Of a DNA stretch of 41,948 nucleotides, positions 2,085 to 37,150 are shown piece by piece. Numbering within the stretch: position 1 is the first letter of the stretch; every line of letters begins with the position of its first letter. The notes beneath the pieces are model-generated. The model was given only the letters and a program-made list of their open reading frames with translations, was not told where the DNA came from and made no database searches. This DNA is from a virus. Lineage: Duplodnaviria > Caudoviricetes. The stretch covers positions 1-41,948 of the IMG/VR virus record IMGVR_UViG_3300005934_000010. One strand, 5' to 3'. The translations under genes were made by a program, and so were the position numbers.

Positions 2085-2643
2085 TTCAATATACAATATA
2101 GATTTTGATATAAACAAAGAAATGCTCATTGAAGAAAGTAAAGTTTGTGATTATGTTCCTATCAATCGTGTAACTCTGAGGCGTGTAAAGATGGGAAGTT
2201 ATGCAGAAACAAAAGGTAAGAAATTTTCTGATTTCTTAAATGAAGAGGATAAAGACTGGTGGTTAAAACAAGATACATGGCAGTCTAGTATGAACGCTGA
2301 TGCTGAAATGTTATTTAAGATGCCAGAGACAACAAGAATTCTTGCTTACTTTAAAAGCAAACTACAGACAGAGAATATTGAAGCAAACTTCTTCACTCAG
2401 AAACAAGGAACAAGCGTAAAGATGCATGTAGATGTTGGCACACCATGTGCTATAAATTTTATTATCAAAGGTGAAGAAACTCCTATCATATTTGAAGATG
2501 AAGGAACTTTCTTTTATAAAACTGCATTGCTAAATGTAAGTAAAAAACATATGGTACCAGAACAAGAAACAACTGATAGAATGCTTTTCAAGTTAAGAAT
2601 ATTAGACTTAAACTTTGATGAAGCAAAGGAAAGACTATGCTAA
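2074..2643 (+). CDS. 2OG-Fe(II) oxygenase/cupin-like protein (tandem paralog)
   Basis: MHVDVGTPCAINFIIKG...KHMVP...RMLFKLRI aligns by eye with the upstream gene; GTG start. Confidence 0.65.
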   Translation: MVSNSIYNIDFDINKEMLIEESKVCDYVPINRVTLRRVKMGSYAETKGKKFSDFLNEEDKDWWLKQDTWQSSMNADAEMLFKMPETTRILAYFKSKLQTENIEANFFTQKQGTSVKMHVDVGTPCAINFIIKGEETPIIFEDEGTFFYKTALLNVSKKHMVPEQETTDRMLFKLRILDLNFDEAKERLC

Positions 2644-3272
2644 ACAAAAGTCAAACATTTATATTATTACATCATATATCTTTGATTGTAGGTATAGCTA
2701 TATATGGCTTTCAGTGGCAGTGGGCTATTGTAGTGTTTCTGTTTGGTATGTTATGGGCTTGGCTAGTTGGACATAACATTATTCATTATTACTTTTCTCA
2801 TGGAAAATACAAAGACAGTTTAAAAAGTTACTTCTATACTTTTCTTTCTTTAACATCTGGATTAGGTTCACCAATATCTTTCAGTGCATCACACAGACAA
2901 CATCACAAATATTCAGATACAGAAAAGGATCCTCACTCTCCACATCATATAGGCTGGAAACGTGTTTACTTTCTGAATTGGGAACCACAAAATATAACAC
3001 CTAGACTGATTGCAGATTTTGCCAGAAGTAAGTTTCAAAAATGGGTACATAGACACTGGTACAAGCTACATATAGCAATAGTATTAGTAATTGCAATTAT
3101 AGACTTAAGACTGCTATTCTTTGCTTTGTCTCCGGGTGTTTTGTATAGTTTTCATAGTGCAAGTCTCACAAATACACTTTCTCATATTGGGGGAGTACAC
3201 AGAAACGTTCAGTTCCTTAAGCCTCTTGCTTGGTGGGGCTGGAATCACGCAGACCATCATAATTACAAATAA
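2637..3272 (+). CDS. Membrane fatty-acid desaturase (compact)
   Basis: Three His boxes (HYYFSH, HRQHH, HADHH), DPHSP motif and hydrophobic segments. Confidence 0.85.
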   Translation: MLNKSQTFILLHHISLIVGIAIYGFQWQWAIVVFLFGMLWAWLVGHNIIHYYFSHGKYKDSLKSYFYTFLSLTSGLGSPISFSASHRQHHKYSDTEKDPHSPHHIGWKRVYFLNWEPQNITPRLIADFARSKFQKWVHRHWYKLHIAIVLVIAIIDLRLLFFALSPGVLYSFHSASLTNTLSHIGGVHRNVQFLKPLAWWGWNHADHHNYK

Positions 3273-3328: not shown

Positions 3329-3634
3329 ATGGCTGAAATGTTAAGACACTCAAACGTCAAAGAGAGATTAGAAAGACTTAGAAAGTTAAGTGGTAAGGTC
3401 GAACATCTTAGACGTTTTCATAGTGACTTTGAAAACAAAGAATTTTTAAACTGGACATGTGTTTCTCATGAAAATATCAACTACGAAAAAGTTATGATAG
3501 AAGGTGCTGGACATATAACACAGTTAGTAGATTGGTGTAACAGTCATTTACAAGACCATTATGTTGCGTATCAAGGTAAGTTTTATTTTAAGAATGATAA
3601 TGATGCCGCATACTTTACAATGTATTGGAAATAG
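3329..3634 (+). CDS. Hypothetical protein
   Basis: ORF; start moved to 3329 because a GGAG Shine-Dalgarno precedes it and the longer start overlaps the promoter. Confidence 0.7.
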   Translation: MAEMLRHSNVKERLERLRKLSGKVEHLRRFHSDFENKEFLNWTCVSHENINYEKVMIEGAGHITQLVDWCNSHLQDHYVAYQGKFYFKNDNDAAYFTMYWK

Positions 3635-3642
3635 TGTATAAT
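3614..3642 (+). promoter_or_regulatory. sigma70-type promoter giving a leaderless mRNA for the mini-DnaE
   Basis: TTTACA-N17-TATAAT (extended TGn -10), ATG 6 nt after the -10 box. Confidence 0.7.
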
Positions 3643-3648
3643 AAAAGA

Positions 3649-4236
3649 ATGAAAGTACAAACTGATATAGATATTGATGTTATCGATAGAGATAGTGTGT
3701 TAACACATTTTCGACACATAACAGCAAGTATAAAAAAGAAGAATGAATATACAAAACATAACAGTGGTGTATATCTTCAACCTATTCCATATGATCCAGT
3801 CAGTGGTCTTGCAAGTATCGAATACAAAGAAGCAGAAGAACGAGGATACTTTAAGTTAGATTTTCTTAATAACAGTTTGTATGAAGGCGTAAAAGATGAA
3901 AAGCATTTAGATGAACTTATTGCAAAAGAACCTATTTGGGATTTACTACAACATGCAGATGTAGTTAAAAATCTTGCACATGTTCATAATCATTTAGATG
4001 TTTTAAAAGTCATGAAGCCTCAAAGTATTGAAGAATTAGCAGAAGTACTAGCAGTAATTCGACCTGCTAAGAGACATTTGCTTAATGAAAGTAAAGAAAC
4101 TATCAGTAAAGAAGTATGGAAGAAACCAGAAGATGATAGTTATTTCTTTAAGAAAGCACATGCGATTGCATATGCAGTTAGTATTGTAGTTCAGCTTAAT
4201 CTATTTTGCGAACAAGTTGAACAGAACGCCTCTTGA
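3649..4236 (+). CDS. Miniature DNA polymerase III alpha (DnaE, family C)-like catalytic core
   Basis: Collinear DnaE motifs TDIDID, KHNSGV, GYFKLDFL, IRP and FKKAHAIAYA in about 195 aa. Confidence 0.8.
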   Translation: MKVQTDIDIDVIDRDSVLTHFRHITASIKKKNEYTKHNSGVYLQPIPYDPVSGLASIEYKEAEERGYFKLDFLNNSLYEGVKDEKHLDELIAKEPIWDLLQHADVVKNLAHVHNHLDVLKVMKPQSIEELAEVLAVIRPAKRHLLNESKETISKEVWKKPEDDSYFFKKAHAIAYAVSIVVQLNLFCEQVEQNAS

Positions 4237-4585: not shown

Positions 4586-4593
4586 CGTTGTAT

Positions 4594-5433
4594 TTATTCT
4601 CGCCAACTCCAGTCGTCCCAAAGGGCATCTTGATTATTCCAAATGTCTGTCACTTTTTCTAAAAATTCAAAATATTCTTTTGGAGGATTTGGTAAATTAT
4701 TTAATATGCTATATAGTTTGTACCATTTCATGTATATTGCTGTTGGTTTTAATTTAAAAAAATCATGTATTTTGTTATTAATCACATCATTGTGAGATAA
4801 TATATTACTATTACTTATCTTGAAAATTTCTGTTAGTTCTTTGTTTCTTCCTAATCTGAACATAACTCCCCTTACCAAAGCGTTGCGGCTACCGTCATGC
4901 AAACGATTTTTTACACTATCAAAGTACATAGACCAAGCCATGTCTTCTATTGTTGTATTAAAAATCCAATACACATCATTCCATTTGTGTCCAAATAATG
5001 TATCTAAGTATTTGTCTCGCTCATTGAAAATATCTTTTGCTCTATGTAGGTCATCATGGAGCAAATCATATGGATCATGGGTCACTTGTATATCTATATT
5101 TGAATTTAATATCTCACTATCAAATTCTTTGTGTTTAGTTTGTAACTTATATTCACGATTTATATAATGTTGCCAATTATTGTATAATTTTACATTATTT
5201 TCGTTTCTTTCTTTTGAGGAATAAGGCCATCTTAGAAGGTTCAATAAAACTGATATATCTTGATTTGGTATTACTTGCCCGTTTGATTCAATAGAAAACA
5301 GCCATTTGTCATCCAACATTAGTCTGTTTTCTTTTATATGTAAATTGTGTTCAGGATTTTTTAATATCCATAAACAACTTCTTACAAAATCTCCACCAGT
5401 ACATCCTTCATAGTTTATAAGAACCTTTTCCAT
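4594..5433 (-). CDS. Hypothetical protein, possibly a P-loop/sulfotransferase-like fold
   Basis: Probable start MEKVLINYEGCTGGDF at 5433; N-terminal strand followed by a Gly-rich loop. Fold call is tentative. Confidence 0.6.
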   Translation of the reverse strand: MEKVLINYEGCTGGDFVRSCLWILKNPEHNLHIKENRLMLDDKWLFSIESNGQVIPNQDISVLLNLLRWPYSSKERNENNVKLYNNWQHYINREYKLQTKHKEFDSEILNSNIDIQVTHDPYDLLHDDLHRAKDIFNERDKYLDTLFGHKWNDVYWIFNTTIEDMAWSMYFDSVKNRLHDGSRNALVRGVMFRLGRNKELTEIFKISNSNILSHNDVINNKIHDFFKLKPTAIYMKWYKLYSILNNLPNPPKEYFEFLEKVTDIWNNQDALWDDWSWRE

Positions 5434-5437
5434 AATA

Positions 5438-5453
5438 CTATTTAGATAAATAC
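5438..5453. promoter_or_regulatory. Overlapping back-to-back late promoters
   Basis: CTAAATAG (-, 5445-5438) and GATAAATAC (+, 5445-5453), each 4 nt before an ATG. Confidence 0.7.
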
Positions 5454-5457
5454 ATAT

Positions 5458-6258
5458 ATGATAAACTTCAATATGTATCAGTATGAAAGAGATATTGAAA
5501 TTGCTTGTGTCGATGGTGACAACACAAGCACTATGACAAGTTACCTGGGGAATATGCCAATGTATGATGGAACACATAAATTACATAAGGGTATAGATAA
5601 TACTCTTAGATTTAAAATAAAAGACACAGATAGAAAGCCTATCGATTTAACAAACAAAACTATTATATGGAAAATGTATGATAGAGAATCAAGAGAAAAC
5701 GTACTATTCAAATACCTTACTGTCACCAACGCATCCAAAGGTATGGCATCACTTACAATTCAAACGGCTGATACAATCATGCTTCCTCAGGGATTTTATC
5801 AGTTTGCAATGTACACTGTAGAAAATGGCGTAGAACAAATCATATACACTGATACGTATGATAATGCCAAAGGTGCAATCGAAGTAATTGATGATGTTTA
5901 CCCAGAGTTTGAACCATCGCAAGTATGCGAAAATTTCTTTAATGATGGTACTTACTTTATTTCTACTGCATTTAATGGATCTGGTGAAACATCAAAATCT
6001 AAATCAGTTCACACTATTGCTATGTATTTTGACAACTTCACAGGCACAGTTGAGATACAAGGTGACTTAAGTGACCAACCAAGTAGTTCTCATAGTGACT
6101 GGTTTTTGTTATCACCTGAGTTGTTTTCTAATCCAACAATCACTATCAATAATGAGACAGGTGTACAAGCATTTGTTCTTAAAGCAAATGTAAACTGGAT
6201 CAGAGTAAGATACACTGCGACAAGTGGTTCTATCAAAAAAGTCCTACTAAGAAACTAA
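5458..6258 (+). CDS. Probable virion structural protein (beta-rich, BppU/Ig-like N-terminal part)
   Basis: Late promoter; LRFKIKDTDRKPIDLT...GxY pattern typical of baseplate upper proteins. Confidence 0.55.
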   Translation: MINFNMYQYERDIEIACVDGDNTSTMTSYLGNMPMYDGTHKLHKGIDNTLRFKIKDTDRKPIDLTNKTIIWKMYDRESRENVLFKYLTVTNASKGMASLTIQTADTIMLPQGFYQFAMYTVENGVEQIIYTDTYDNAKGAIEVIDDVYPEFEPSQVCENFFNDGTYFISTAFNGSGETSKSKSVHTIAMYFDNFTGTVEIQGDLSDQPSSSHSDWFLLSPELFSNPTITINNETGVQAFVLKANVNWIRVRYTATSGSIKKVLLRN

Positions 6259-6301: not shown

Positions 6302-7303
6302 ATGGACCTTCAACAAGTAATATATACACATATACCTGGTAAGAATAAACAATCAAGTGGTGGTTGGACTAGTTTCAACTGTCCTTGTTGTGTCGAGGAA
6401 GGCGAACCTCGTTTAGACACCAGAATGCGTGGGGGTATTCGAAGTGACGGTGATTCCATATCATACCACTGTTTTAACTGTGGATTCACTGCAAGTCACC
6501 GAAATGGCAGAATACTTAACAAGAAGTTTTTAAAACTCATGCGTAATCTTAATGTTTCTGAAAGTGATATAAAGCGTTTACAGTTAGAAGCTATCCGTCA
6601 GAAAGAATTGTCTGAAGGTCCATCCCTATTCATTTCAAAGACACAAGTTACTAGGATACCTAGTTATCCTGATTGTGAATTGCCAGAAGGTGCAGAAGAT
6701 TTAGAAGTTATCTTAGCAAAAGATAATCCACCAGAAGGAGCCATCTTTGCAACAAAGTATTTGATAGACAGAGGAGTATTTGACCATATTGATAATGCGT
6801 ATTGGTCTCCTCATATGAATTTTAAGAATAGAGTTATATTTCCTTTCTATCAAGGTGATAGAATAGTTGGTTACACTGCACGTGATATTACAGGTAAGTC
6901 TGCATCAAAGTATATTACAAAGTCACCAAAAAAGTTTCTACATAATGCAGATAAGATTAAGACAAGTCATAAATACTTAATCGTATGTGAAGGTATAATA
7001 GATGCTATTGCATTGGATTGTATTGCGATTACAAGTAATGAGGCTTCACAAGACCAAGTTGATTATATCAATCAATTTAAAGGAGAGGTGATTGTTTGTC
7101 CCGACAGAGACAAAGCTGGAGAGAAGTTAATCAAACAAGCACAAGAAAATGGTTGGAGTGTATCTTTCCCAATGTGGGAAGATGATATAAAAGATGCCGC
7201 AGATGCAATTCAACGTTATGGCAAACTATATACTCTCAAAAGTATTATAGATGCACGTATAAGTAATAACACTAAGATTAGTGTAAAAATGAGAATAGGA
7301 TAA
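6302..7303 (+). CDS. DNA primase (Zn finger + TOPRIM; gp61/DnaG-like)
   Basis: CPCC...HCFNC zinc finger, VCEGIIDA, PDRDKAG and KDA TOPRIM motifs. Confidence 0.9.
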   Translation: MDLQQVIYTHIPGKNKQSSGGWTSFNCPCCVEEGEPRLDTRMRGGIRSDGDSISYHCFNCGFTASHRNGRILNKKFLKLMRNLNVSESDIKRLQLEAIRQKELSEGPSLFISKTQVTRIPSYPDCELPEGAEDLEVILAKDNPPEGAIFATKYLIDRGVFDHIDNAYWSPHMNFKNRVIFPFYQGDRIVGYTARDITGKSASKYITKSPKKFLHNADKIKTSHKYLIVCEGIIDAIALDCIAITSNEASQDQVDYINQFKGEVIVCPDRDKAGEKLIKQAQENGWSVSFPMWEDDIKDAADAIQRYGKLYTLKSIIDARISNNTKISVKMRIG

Positions 7304-7311
7304 AATAAAAC

Positions 7312-7950
7312 ATGAAAAACGATAAACCAATTATTCCACTACCAAAAGAACAACCCAAGCCACCGGCACCCCCACCCCCTCCGATGCCTCCGGCACCGCC
7401 TAAACAACCAGGTGAATATAGTAAAGATAATGGTATTCTTTTCATGGATAAAGAATTCAATCAAGACAACTGTATGCCTTTGGTAAAGATGATTATCGAA
7501 TATAATCTTATGCCAAAAGATAAAGCACCAGAAGTTATTCACTTGTATATCAATTCACCAGGTGGTTTCGTAGACAGTTGTATGCATTTAATTGATACAA
7601 TCAAACAATCACGTATTCCAGTTCATACATATGGTATGGGTTCTATCGCAAGTTGTGGAGTTATGTTGATGATGTCTGGCGTAAAAGGTCATCGTTATCT
7701 TACACAAAACACTGCGGTTATGTCACATGAGTTCTCAGGTGGTACAAAAGGACAATATCATGATATGGTAGAAAGCCGTAAACACATGGATTGGACTAAC
7801 GAAAAACTAATGGAACATTATATCAAATGCACAGGTAAAACGAAAACATATATTCGTAAGCATCTGTTAGCACCAAAAACAGACCATTGGTTAACTCCAG
7901 AAGAAGCTATCAAACACGGTATCGCTGATAAATTAATTACGACTTACTAA
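7312..7950 (+). CDS. clpP: ClpP protease proteolytic subunit with a Pro-rich N-terminus
   Basis: LYINSPGG, GSIASCG (Ser), MSHE (His), TDHWLTPEEAIKHGIAD (Asp). Confidence 0.9.
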   Translation: MKNDKPIIPLPKEQPKPPAPPPPPMPPAPPKQPGEYSKDNGILFMDKEFNQDNCMPLVKMIIEYNLMPKDKAPEVIHLYINSPGGFVDSCMHLIDTIKQSRIPVHTYGMGSIASCGVMLMMSGVKGHRYLTQNTAVMSHEFSGGTKGQYHDMVESRKHMDWTNEKLMEHYIKCTGKTKTYIRKHLLAPKTDHWLTPEEAIKHGIADKLITTY

Positions 7951-7960
7951 CAGTTTTCTA

Positions 7961-7989
7961 TTGACTCTTGCAAACAAATTTGCTATTAT
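7961..7989 (+). promoter_or_regulatory. sigma70-type promoter
   Basis: TTGACT-N17-TATTAT upstream of prs. Confidence 0.75.
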
Positions 7990-8021
7990 AACAGTAATAA
8001 CTGTAACATATAGGTGAGTCT

Positions 8022-8969
8022 ATGAAGATTATAGCTGGTAACAGTAACAGAGATTTAGCAGAAAAGATTGCTGAACACTGTTTTACTGATATTGTTCCGT
8101 CTGACATTAAAACTTTTGCAGATGGCGAATGTAGTGTAGAATTTTTTGATAACATCAGAGGTGAAGATGTTTTCATCATACAGAGTACAAGTTCACCAGT
8201 AAATGATAACTTAATGGAAATGATGGTTATGATTGATGCGGCTAAACGTAGTTCAGCCAAACGTATCACTGCCGTCATTCCTTATTTTGGTTATGCAAGA
8301 CAGGATCGTAAGAGTGCAAGTCGTACTCCTATTACTGCAAAACTTGTTGCTAACCTTATCACTAAGTCAGGTGCAGATAGAATCTTAACAATGGATTTAC
8401 ATGCTGGACAAATTCAAGGCTTTTTTGATATACCTGTTGATGATTTAACAAGTAGATTAGTATTTGCAAGAGATATCAAACGTCAAATCAATGTAGATGA
8501 AGAACCGATTGTATTTGTTTCTCCAGATGCTGGTGGCACAGTAAGAGCAAGAAAGTTTGCTGACATGTATCATGCCAATTATGCTATCGTTGACAAACGT
8601 AGACCAGAAGCTGGTAAGGCAGAAGTTATGAATCTAATTGGTGATGTTAAAGGCAAACATGCAATTCTTGTAGATGATATTGTAGATAGTGGCGGAACTC
8701 TTTGCAATGCGGCACAGGCAATTTTAGATGCTGGTGCGTTAAGTGTTAGAGCATATATTACACATGGTGTTCTAAGCGGTGAAGCATGTAAGAAAGTTGA
8801 AAAGAGTGCATTAGAAGAATTGGTTATCACAGACAGTATTGAATTTAAATGTCCTAATGATTGTAAAAAGACAAGAACAGTTTCAGTTTGCGGTTTGTTA
8901 GGCGAAGCAATCAGACGAGTTAATAATGAAGAAAGTGTTAGTAGTCTGTTTAAAGCGAAAGTACATTAA
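8022..8969 (+). CDS. prs: Ribose-phosphate pyrophosphokinase
   Basis: [35 protein letters not shown] and [10 protein letters not shown] motifs. Confidence 0.97.
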
Positions 8970-10009: not shown

Positions 10010-11422
10010 ATGTCCGATGTAAAAGATTATAGTTCAGATTTACAAAAACTATTTGTACAATTCATGCTATCAGATCCAGAGTTATACTCTAGGGTTCGTA
10101 GCATTGTAAAGCCTAGTTACTTTGATAGAAGTGTAAGAAAAGTAGTTGATTTATTGGTTGAGCATTCAGAAGAATACTCAACTATTCCTACTCCTGAAAT
10201 TATCAAAGCACAAACAGGACAAGAGATTGAAAAAGTAGATAACATCGAACAACATACAGATTGGTTTATTGATGAATTTGAAACTTTTTGTAGACATAAA
10301 GCAATCGAAAAAGCAATCATTGATAGTGCAGACTTACTTGAAACTGGTAAGTATGGTGAAGTAGAAACTAGAATTAAAGATGCAGTTCAGATTGGACTTG
10401 CACGTTCTTTAGGTACAGACTACTTTGCTGATCCTAGAGCAAGACTTGAAAAATTAAAAGATAATAACGGACAGATATCTACAGGCTGGAAAGCACTAGA
10501 TGATAAACTCTATGGCGGTATTAATCGTGGTGAGATATCAATCTTTGCAGGTGGTTCTGGTGCAGGTAAATCCTTGTTCATGCAAAACATGAGTTTGAAT
10601 TGGGCAGAACTTGGAATGAATGTTGTTTACTTTACTCTTGAACTTTCAGAAGAATTATCAAGTATGCGTATGGACGCAATGCTTACAGATAGAAGTACTA
10701 AAAGAATTTTTAAAGAATTAGATGATGTTGAATTAGCAGTTAAGACTAAAGGTAAAAAGTCTGGTATGTTGAGAGTGAAATATCTTCCATCAGGCTCTAC
10801 AGTTAATGACTTACGTTCATATCTAAAAGAATTACAAATACAAACAGGCAAAAAAGTAGATTGTATGTGTATCGATTATCTTGATTTGTTGATGCCTGCA
10901 ACAAAGAAAGTTCCAGCTGGCGACTTGTTTATCAAAGACAAATATGTTACAGAAGAAATTCGTAACTTTGCAATGGAAACAGAGACAGTTATGGTAACTG
11001 CATCACAGTTAAACAGAAGTGCAGTTGAAGAAATTGAGTTTGACCATTCACATATTGCAGGTGGTATCTCAAAAATTCAAACTGCGGACAATGTTATTGG
11101 TATTTTCACAAGTCAAGCAATGCGTGAACGTGGACAATATCAGTTACAATTACTTAAAACTCGTTCATCAAGTGGTGTAGGAAGTAAGATTAATCTGTTA
11201 TTTGATAGAGATAGTTTGAAGATTACAGATGATAATTCAGAAGGATTTGACGATGGTGATGGCGCACAGATATCATCTACGTTAAATATCATGGATAATT
11301 TAAGAAAAAAGACTACAGTAGTCGCAGAAACCCAAGAAAAATCCGAAGAACAGACAGACGTTGCGAAGAATTTAAGAGCAATGTTGAAGACCAAGACACG
11401 TTCTCCTTTTGACGAAAACTGA
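10010..11422 (+). CDS. Replicative DNA helicase (T4 gp41/DnaB family)
   Basis: GGSGAGKS Walker A, FTLEL, IDYLDL, ASQLNR, LKTR. Confidence 0.95.
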   Translation: MSDVKDYSSDLQKLFVQFMLSDPELYSRVRSIVKPSYFDRSVRKVVDLLVEHSEEYSTIPTPEIIKAQTGQEIEKVDNIEQHTDWFIDEFETFCRHKAIEKAIIDSADLLETGKYGEVETRIKDAVQIGLARSLGTDYFADPRARLEKLKDNNGQISTGWKALDDKLYGGINRGEISIFAGGSGAGKSLFMQNMSLNWAELGMNVVYFTLELSEELSSMRMDAMLTDRSTKRIFKELDDVELAVKTKGKKSGMLRVKYLPSGSTVNDLRSYLKELQIQTGKKVDCMCIDYLDLLMPATKKVPAGDLFIKDKYVTEEIRNFAMETETVMVTASQLNRSAVEEIEFDHSHIAGGISKIQTADNVIGIFTSQAMRERGQYQLQLLKTRSSSGVGSKINLLFDRDSLKITDDNSEGFDDGDGAQISSTLNIMDNLRKKTTVVAETQEKSEEQTDVAKNLRAMLKTKTRSPFDEN

Positions 11423-36325: not shown

Positions 36326-37150
36326 CTAAGCATTTTTATCTAAAGCAGAAATCATTCTAGTCATACCGATTCCTCCACCAACTCTCGGGAAGAAATCAAA
36401 TTCTAAGAATTTTTCTAATTCAGCTTCTACACGTTCTTTAGAGAATAGTTTGTATAGTAATTCTGAGTATTCGCCATTTGTAATTGTGTGAAAAGTATCT
36501 CTCATCATTTCTACATCACATGAACGTTCGGCAGAACCTATTGTTTCCATTCCACCTAAGATAACATCTATCTTCTTACTTGTAGCACCACCTTCGTGTC
36601 TACTCATGTTCCAGAACGGAGATGTCATTTCAGGAAAATCAGTAATCATAGTTGAACCGAATTCTTCAAACATCTTAGTTTCATGTTCAGCTTCCATTTC
36701 AGTCATTGGATCTAGACCAAAATGTTTCTGCCAATCTGCATATGTTCTTTCTTCTGGTTTAGGGAATTCTAAGTATTCACATAATTCGTATTCCATCTTT
36801 TTTAAATCATCGTACCCGCCTGGCATTTCAAATTCAAACATTGGGAATATAATGTCGTGTCTACCTGGAATAGCATTTGGCTCTTGTCTGTAGGACGTGG
36901 AGACACAAAAAAAGCCCTTTGCATCGGGCTTAGAGAGTAATTCGTGTTCTAACCACATTTGGCCTGTTTGGGGAAGAGGCCAGACTTGGCCTGCATAATT
37001 GTATGTTGCTACATTGAACGGATCTTCACAAGCCGCTAATATAGATAATCTGTTTTGAGTATGAACTTCTTCAAACCCTTTATCCAAAAAAAATGACCTT
37101 AAAAGGCCAACTGTTTTTGTAAATTTTGTAGGTGATATGAGTTGCGTCAT
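36326..37150 (-). CDS. Class IIb aaRS catalytic-core paralog (AsnRS-like/asparagine synthetase-related) without an anticodon domain
   Basis: LPQTGQMWLE, motif 2 YRQE...RH..FPMFEFE, motif 3 GGGIGMTR; only 274 aa. Confidence 0.8.
   Translation of the reverse strand: MTQLISPTKFTKTVGLLRSFFLDKGFEEVHTQNRLSILAACEDPFNVATYNYAGQVWPLPQTGQMWLEHELLSKPDAKGFFCVSTSYRQEPNAIPGRHDIIFPMFEFEMPGGYDDLKKMEYELCEYLEFPKPEERTYADWQKHFGLDPMTEMEAEHETKMFEEFGSTMITDFPEMTSPFWNMSRHEGGATSKKIDVILGGMETIGSAERSCDVEMMRDTFHTITNGEYSELLYKLFSKERVEAELEKFLEFDFFPRVGGGIGMTRMISALDKNA

What the first reader, a model, noticed from the sequence alone, without database searches (positions are those of the whole stretch)
3614..4236. A ~195-aa minimal family-C (DnaE) polymerase with intact catalytic motifs
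Seen: the motifs TDIDID, KHNSGV, KLDFL, IRP and FKKAHAIAYA occur in the same order as PDxDxD, HAxGV, KxDxL, RPG and FNKSHxxAY in DnaE. The ORF is clean and has its own promoter. Known: DnaE is about 1100+ aa, and its catalytic aspartates lie in the DxD and KxD motifs, which are all present here. The PHP, most of the thumb, the clamp-binding and the OB regions are absent. The segments between motifs are shortened internally rather than cut off at one end, which fits streamlining better than decay. Inference: a stand-alone miniature nucleotidyltransferase, for example a primer-extension partner of the nearby primase, a DNA/protein-modifying or template-independent polymerase, or one subunit of a split polymerase.
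Basis: partly seen in the sequence, partly recalled or inferred. Interest (0 to 1): 0.85.

Follow-up and report, generated by a model that had tools for sequence, protein, structure and literature searches.

The report
C-terminal half of split mini-DnaE
This intact 195-residue jumbo-phage gene encodes only the metal-binding half of a tiny two-gene relative of the bacterial replicative DNA polymerase, an arrangement described from sequence in 2021; a natural protein in which both halves are fused supports the prediction that they work together, likely as a short-run DNA polymerase that is still untested at the bench.

Summary
The ORF (3649-4236, 195 aa) and its DnaE motifs are real. It matches PHROG 11778 (E 1e-73) and folds like E. 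coli DnaE 398-781. It is under purifying selection (dN/dS about 0.16) and keeps D401/D403/D555, K553 and the H760 steric gate. It is not stand-alone: it starts just before the DxD and lacks the N-terminal palm (GRGS loop). That part is a separate ~175-aa gene 34-182 kb away in 5 of 5 relatives searched; 5 more genomes chosen for that gene all hold this one. A family B polymerase is present in 7 of 10 records searched. This is the C-terminal unit of the split minimal Pol III alpha of group 2.2 jumbo phages (Iyer et al. 2021), and this scan found it three times before on other DNA. Added here: the split maps to DnaE 393/~396, and one natural 375-aa N+C fusion (P0309, a singleton) models as a continuous DnaE palm (Z 17, residues 270-773). 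Likely function: a thumbless, distributive heterodimeric DNA polymerase, best guess a primer extender; untested. New member of a known kind.

The parts
3614..3642 (+). sigma-70-like promoter (-35 at 3614, -10 ending 3642), 6 nt before the ATG, so the message would be leaderless; kept only in close relatives
   Evidence: 11 of 12 consensus matches; seen by eye upstream in about 16 of 69 homologous loci; in many others the start directly follows or overlaps the upstream gene's end
3649..4236 (+). C-terminal unit of the split minimal Pol III alpha (195 aa; PHROG 11778), equivalent to E. coli DnaE ~398-781 with the thumb and most of the fingers deleted
3664..3678 (+). D6-x-D8-x-D10 = E. coli D401/D403/D405 (metal binding)
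   Evidence: D6 103/103, D8 103/103, D10 101/103; numbering
3757..3768 (+). H37-x-x-G40 = E. coli H511 motif; preceded by a beta-hairpin (res. 24-42) where DnaE has its thumb
   Evidence: H37 102/103; secondary structure; thumb boundaries (~433-510) recalled
3853..3861 (+). K69-x-D71 = E. coli K553/D555 (third catalytic Asp)
   Evidence: both 103/103; aligned
4060..4071 (+). R138-P139-x-K141 = DnaE RPG motif; K141 is a family-specific basic residue
   Evidence: R138 and P139 103/103, K141 94/103
4147..4173 (+). F167-Y175 helix = DnaE F756-Y764, with H171 = steric gate H760 and K168 in place of N757
   Evidence: H171 101/103, Y175 92/103 (F in 8), K168 96/103; steric-gate assignment PMC8485763
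4196..4621 (-). convergent, overlapping gene of unknown function (PHROG 11637), constant neighbour
   Evidence: 71 of 71 loci with at least 1 kb downstream
6302..7303 (+). DnaG-type primase, conserved downstream neighbour
   Evidence: 54 of 54 loci with at least 5 kb downstream
10010..11422 (+). DnaB-type helicase, conserved downstream neighbour
   Evidence: 41 of 42 loci with at least 9 kb downstream

Best explanation
The gene encodes the metal-binding, C-terminal half of a two-gene minimal DnaE of group 2.2 jumbo phages, which is predicted to pair with a distantly encoded ~175-aa N-terminal half into a thumbless DNA polymerase that likely adds only short DNA stretches, most likely extending primase-made RNA primers before the phage's family B replicase takes over. 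Shown by sequence or tools: (1) family identity; (2) the partner gene in relatives; (3) a split point at DnaE 393/~396; (4) selection on the three aspartates, K553 and H760; (5) one natural fusion of both halves. Predicted from a model: (6) the halves form one DnaE palm. Inferred: (7) dNTP rather than NTP use, from the steric gate; (8) low processivity, from loss of the thumb, most fingers, clamp motif and HhH/OB; (9) primer extension, from linkage to primase and helicase and the B. subtilis DnaE-to-PolC precedent. My odds: steps 1-5 about 0.95, 6 about 0.85, 7-8 about 0.7, 9 about 0.4.
For: The N-unit was found by PF07733 positions ~16-98 in 5 of 5 relatives (G001, whose C-unit is 87% identical to the window's; G002; Atu_ph07; RaK2; Paride), as 169-184-aa ORFs ending in EFL(K/R) or EFLE. 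The C-unit was found in 5 of 5 genomes picked for their N-unit. PolB is in 5 of those 5 and in 2 of 5 others, namely both records at least 90% complete. N-units stop 35-41 aa after GxGRGS in 80 of 80 loci and 35-46 aa after it in 160 of 160; 103 of 120 protein hits end in EFLR/EFLK. The N-unit aligns to E. coli 323-394 and the C-unit model begins at 398. Fusion P0309 matches PHROG 11127 (res. 8-180, E 5e-33) and PHROG 11778 (190-374, E 4e-47); its model (pLDDT 76, pTM 0.69) aligns to DnaE at Z 17.0 (rmsd 3.5, 285 aligned), and to E. coli 270-773 over 294 residues, against Z 9.8 for the C-unit alone. dN/dS median is 0.16, maximum 0.48, over 203 of 990 pairs with 0.05<dS<1.5. The primase follows in 54 of 54 loci and the helicase in 41 of 42. 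The N-unit lies upstream of a clamp-loader gene in 47 of 51 loci.
Against: I found no biochemical test in print. The fusion is a single sequence on one 2,415-bp contig and could be an assembly chimera. No second fusion turned up: best 80 of 591 metagenome candidates (6 of 64 parts scanned); best 80 of 584 viral candidates (15 of 64 parts); 120 pattern loci; a 'longer' protein search (0 of 1,641 candidates). Its model is weak at the junction (pLDDT <50 at 164-183) and can lean on solved DnaE structures. R390, R396 and R709/R710, several of them triphosphate ligands in DnaE, have no aligned equivalent: E181 sits at R390. Substitution by K/R184 of the N-unit, K141 or K168 is only my inference. 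The replication linkage is weak evidence, because virion genes and GroES are equally constant neighbours. T4-type PolB can extend RNA primers unaided (own knowledge). The window's own N-unit is not on this 15%-complete contig. One C-unit (L221) is broken into two frames.
Confidence: 0.45

Rival explanations
1. The same heterodimeric DNA polymerase, used for gap filling in repair or recombination-dependent replication (Okazaki gaps, UvsX/UvsW-dependent restart) rather than primer extension.
For: Iyer et al. offer strand synthesis or repair. UvsX and a UvsW-type helicase lie within 8 kb upstream in RaK2 and Paride, and RaK2 also has a stand-alone exonuclease-subunit gene there. A distributive enzyme suits short gaps.
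Against: Near-universal retention beside primase and helicase fits a core role better than an accessory repair role, though only weakly.
Confidence: 0.28
2. The heterodimer is a non-templated or otherwise re-purposed Pol-beta-fold nucleotidyltransferase (end-tailing, protein or DNA nucleotidylation, small signal nucleotides).
For: The thumb, most fingers and R390/R709/R710 are lost. The N-unit has about 70 N-terminal residues with no DnaE match. After DnaE/PolC, the best fold matches include small nucleotidyltransferases, at Z 4.5 or less.
Against: The DnaE-specific H760/Y764 helix and K553 are kept. DnaE/PolC score Z 10-17 against 4.5 or less for other NTases.
Confidence: 0.15
3. One reading: the 195-aa protein is a stand-alone mini-polymerase.
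For: All three aspartates are on this chain, it folds confidently alone (pLDDT 94.5) and it has its own promoter-like site.
Against: No GRGS loop in 269 of 270 C-unit hits; the exception is the fusion. The complementary N-unit co-occurs in 10 of 10 genomes holding either half that were searched for the other.
Confidence: 0.05
4. The halves are re-joined into one chain by protein or RNA trans-splicing, as in cyanobacterial split-intein DnaE (recalled), or the protein is a catalytically dead scaffold or a pseudogene.
For: The break is clean and collinear, and a fused form exists.
Against: N-units end within a few residues of EFL and C-units start about 5 residues before the DxD, leaving no room for intein halves. 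Invariant aspartates and dN/dS 0.16 argue against decay.
Confidence: 0.04

Closest known systems
Split minimal DNA polymerase III alpha of group 2.2 jumbo phages, C-terminal unit (Iyer et al. 2021, PMC7824862; PHROG 11778, partner PHROG 11127)
   Same: Same phage group (Atu_ph07, RaK2, PA5oct/Paride; 41-54% identity among the 60 of 96 records listed), same two-gene split with distant genes, co-occurring PolB, and no other Pol III domains.
   Different: No difference in kind. This is an uncultured member found in marine metagenomes. The exact split point, residue map and the fusion P0309 were not in the main-text sections I read; the supplement could not be read.
Bacterial DnaE / Pol III alpha (E. 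coli, 1160 aa)
   Same: Pol-beta-like palm, D401/D403/D555, K553, RP motif, H760/Y764 helix; R362-G363-S364 lies in the partner.
   Different: No PHP, thumb, most fingers, HhH, OB or clamp motif; palm split across two genes; no aligned R390, R396, R709 or R710.
Bacillus subtilis DnaE as primer extender for PolC (PMC3664799, PMC5627055; abstract starts only)
   Same: A second, C-family polymerase beside the main replicase, linked to primase and helicase. This is a functional analogy only.
   Different: B. subtilis DnaE is full length and its role is shown in vitro. Here the main replicase is family B and the role is untested.
Split-intein DnaE of cyanobacteria (recalled, no call)
   Same: DnaE encoded in two distant genes.
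   Different: No intein halves fit here, and the product is about a third of the size.

Membership tests
Split minimal Pol III alpha, C-unit (Iyer 2021) | Homology to the C-terminal Mg2+/template-binding subdomain of Pol III alpha only | tested here: met
   model spans E. coli 398-781
Split minimal Pol III alpha, C-unit (Iyer 2021) | N-terminal NTP-binding unit on a distant gene of the same genome | tested here: met
   Met in 5 of 5 relatives, including G001 at 87% identity. Not seen in the window's own contig, which is 15% complete.
Split minimal Pol III alpha, C-unit (Iyer 2021) | Group 2.2 jumbo phage that also encodes a family B polymerase | tested here: met
   PolB in 2 of 5 records (2 of 2 near-complete) and 5 of 5; gene block syntenic with Atu_ph07, RaK2 and Paride
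Split minimal Pol III alpha, C-unit (Iyer 2021) | No other Pol III domains in the genome | tested here: met
   In 5 complete relatives: PHP 0 of 5, HhH 0 of 5; finger 2 of 5 below cut-off, both inside the C-unit gene itself. OB and clamp-binding domains were not searched.
Split minimal Pol III alpha, C-unit (Iyer 2021) | The two units reconstitute one enzyme | tested here: inconclusive
   Supported by one natural fusion and its model; no two-chain prediction was obtained
Family C DNA polymerase (complete DnaE/PolC) | Pol-beta palm with three catalytic Asp | tested here: met
Family C DNA polymerase (complete DnaE/PolC) | GS loop, thumb, full fingers and PHP on the same chain | tested here: not met
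Family C DNA polymerase (complete DnaE/PolC) | Template-directed dNTP incorporation | not testable with these tools
   needs an in vitro assay

The most novel reading that the evidence does not exclude
The N+C pair (about 365 aa, and the natural 375-aa fusion P0309) is the smallest working family C DNA polymerase. It serves a PolB-based jumbo-phage replisome as a dedicated primer extender, the role of eukaryotic Pol alpha filled by a bacterial-fold enzyme without a thumb. P0309 would let this be tested as one expressed chain.
Probability: 0.35. Interest if true: 0.7.

Novelty: new member of a known kind. Interest (0 to 1): 0.33.

Why it matters
The family is a conserved core feature of a large group of jumbo phages (5,932 protein clusters hit; 96 cultured-phage records, including phages of Pseudomonas, Klebsiella and E. 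coli). It has been predicted since 2021, and I found no test of it. If active, it defines the minimal chemistry of the bacterial replicase fold and explains why PolB phages keep a second polymerase. The window adds no new kind. The useful additions are the mapped split point and a natural fusion that makes the assay easier.

Tried and rejected
No Pfam hit for the ORF, and phmmer against the PDB with the single sequence found nothing real; only profiles and folds reach DnaE. The two-chain complex prediction never ran because the queue was full, so there is no verdict on binding. A mixed alignment of the fusion with 88 C-units and 61 N-units mis-stacked the halves. Of 60 random subsets tried locally, 5 aligned correctly; the one with 8 C-units and 45 N-units (A4) was folded, so the C half of that model rests on a shallow alignment. 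Searches for more fusions were negative and partial. No C-unit lies within the 2.5-6 kb flanks of 240 N-unit loci, some of them overlapping between calls. A cellular home is rejected: the 16 loci from genome contigs are all in metagenome-assembled genomes and all 16 carry at least the phage neighbour gene. RNA runs: contigs from X16 and X17 cover parts of the gene, but contigs cannot show transcription, strand or start, so they were not used. ESM Atlas gave no family for the antisense neighbour (best 0.87) and only a sub-threshold PTPS lead (0.83) for the gene upstream of the N-unit. The genome behind L172 is not held. Passages of PMC11348598, PMC12926913, PMC11879866 and PMC11242549 say nothing further on this family. 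PMC4374717 numbers some residues differently (D457, K543), so I used it only for R362/G363/S364/R390/R709/R710.

Full report
Observation. The ORF runs 3649-4236 on the + strand (195 aa from ATG; a TTG at 3625 gives 203 aa) and carries the five motifs in DnaE order. Pfam finds nothing. PHROG 11778 'DNA polymerase' matches residues 2-189 at E 1e-73. A profile of 103 sequences (the window, 13 of 120 close hits and 89 of 150 distant representatives, chosen as near full length) hits only DnaE chains in the PDB (9 sequences, best E 7e-5). The AlphaFold model has pLDDT 94.5. Foldseek ranks DnaE/PolC in its first 18 rows, and VIA-align gives Z 9.8 (rmsd 4.1, 193 aligned) to 5lew and spans E. coli 398-781, with the next unrelated fold at Z 4.0. 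The number of such sites in the region is not above chance (12 against 8.5 +/- 3.0).

Not a pseudogene. 5,932 of 6,113 candidates of similar length are homologues. Among 150 distant representatives, 98 are 170-225 aa, 50 are shorter and 2 longer. D6, D8, K69, D71, R138 and P139 are invariant in 103 of 103 sequences, H171 is kept in 101 and Y175 in 92. These map to E. coli D401, D403, K553, D555, the RP motif, H760 and Y764. H760 is the modelled steric gate against ribonucleotides (PMC8485763, passages). From 69 of 70 loci plus the window (45 unique CDS), dN/dS has median 0.16 and maximum 0.48 over the 203 of 990 pairs with 0.05<dS<1.5. One homologue, L221, is broken into two frames.

Context. 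The window is a 15%-complete fragment of a jumbo phage. tblastn finds 96 cultured-phage records; the 60 listed are PA5oct-, Atu_ph07-, RaK2- and 121Q-like phages. The gene order (this gene, convergent PHROG 11637, virion protein, primase, helicase) is shared with Atu_ph07, RaK2 and Paride. Among 78 loci, the antisense gene follows in 71 of 71, the primase in 54 of 54 and the helicase in 41 of 42 with enough downstream DNA. The 16 hits in cellular genome sets are all in metagenome-assembled genomes and carry the phage neighbour gene.

What is missing, and where it is. The protein begins about five residues before D401, so DnaE ~270-395 is absent, including R362-G363-S364 and R390, which bind the incoming nucleotide (PMC4374717, passages). 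PF07733 positions ~16-98 hit a separate gene in 5 of 5 relatives (G001, G002, Atu_ph07, RaK2, Paride). These are 169-184-aa ORFs that carry GRGS and stop right after, 34-182 kb from the C-unit by record coordinates. This N-unit is PHROG 11127 and aligns to E. coli 323-394. It has 3,221 homologues among 3,256 candidates and 91 phage records with nearly the same genus counts as the C-unit. It ends 35-41 aa after the GxGRGS start in 80 of 80 loci and 35-46 aa after it in 160 of 160. Five genomes chosen for the N-unit all hold one C-unit and PolB; PolB is also in 2 of 5 others, namely both near-complete ones. PHP and HhH are absent from 5 of 5 complete relatives, and the two weak finger hits are the C-unit itself. 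The two genes therefore tile the DnaE palm with a break at about 393/396 and no room for inteins.

A natural fusion. P0309 (375 aa) joins a full N-unit (36% identical to G001's, E 2e-25) to a full C-unit (45% identical to the window's). The linker is three residues longer than in E. coli. Its model (pLDDT 76, pTM 0.69, junction <50) aligns to DnaE at Z 17.0 and covers E. coli 270-773 with 294 residues at rmsd 3.6; residues 1-70 have no DnaE match. This is the best evidence here that the halves form one enzyme. It is a singleton on a 2.4-kb contig, no second case was found in partial scans, and the model can lean on solved DnaE. The two-chain prediction could not be run because its queue was full.

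Mechanism. The C-unit brings the metal ligands, K553 and the sugar-selecting helix, and the N-unit brings the GS loop. A hairpin (residues 24-42) stands where the thumb was (thumb limits recalled), and about 20 residues replace DnaE 643-750, removing R709/R710. R390 is not conserved by alignment. The N-unit's terminal K/R (67 of 68) and the C-unit's K141 and K168 may stand in, which is an inference. Such an enzyme would use dNTPs and fall off quickly. I favour short extension of DnaG primers before hand-off to PolB, by analogy with B. subtilis DnaE (PMC3664799, PMC5627055; abstract starts) and from linkage to primase and helicase (C-unit) and the clamp loader (N-unit, 47 of 51). The linkage is weak, because GroES (68 of 68) and virion genes are just as constant. 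Repair gap filling is the main rival, and a non-templated transferase is possible.

What is known. Iyer et al. 2021 (PMC7824862; outline, passages, section 3.4.1 and figure legends read; supplement unreadable, and it may list split points or fusions) describe this two-gene minimal Pol III alpha in group 2.2 jumbo phages beside PolB and suggest strand synthesis or repair. Searches showed no experimental test and no report of a fusion; the library lacks most subscription papers. Three earlier reports of this scan reached the same identification on other DNA; my reading was entered before I saw them.

Verdict. Observation confirmed; interpretation partly supported; new member of a known, untested kind; interest 0.33.

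Noticed in passing
P0309 (protein; one 2,415-bp contig): Natural 375-aa fusion of the N- and C-units with all motifs intact; singleton cluster.
   Followed up: yes
L172:1294-2754 (+); also L181 and L244 (partial): A 486-aa single-chain DnaE without PHP and without thumb (same hairpin replacement as the mini enzyme; HHalign 95.6% to the C-unit profile) that keeps part of the fingers and an HhH-like end. It lies just downstream of a primase on a 236-kb viral contig. Best cultured matches are about 28% identical, longer PHP-less DnaEs of small phages. Possible intermediate or convergent reduction; no tree was built.
   Followed up: partly
window 4587-5444 (ORF 4594-5577, - strand, likely start near 5433): An 858-bp insert carrying an unannotated ~279-aa gene. 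Contigs from three other runs skip it and have 38 other bases there, and L001, whose C-unit is identical, appears to lack it.
   Followed up: partly
window 3614-3649: The -10 hexamer sits 6 nt before the ATG, suggesting a leaderless message; seen in about 16 of 69 homologous loci, all close relatives.
   Followed up: partly
L078:531-1193 (+): A ~220-aa gene directly upstream of the N-unit, with similar-sized genes in L075, L076 and L077; no Pfam or PHROG hit; weak PTPS/QueD-like lead (0.83).
   Followed up: partly
L071:11956-12531: The annotated start of Atu_ph07 gp074 (12037) lies downstream of the DxDxD motif; the reading frame continues upstream to a Met five residues before it, so the record's start is likely miscalled.
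   Followed up: yes
window 7312-8969 and 2637-3272: ClpP, a PRPP-synthetase-like gene and a fatty-acid-desaturase-like gene are inserted in or beside the replication block; they are present in only 40, 16 and 9 of 78 loci.
   Followed up: no
window 36326-37150 (-): A 274-aa protein (PHROG 29758, unknown function) whose sequence looks like a stand-alone class II Asn/Asp-tRNA-synthetase catalytic domain (recalled resemblance, not tested).
   Followed up: no
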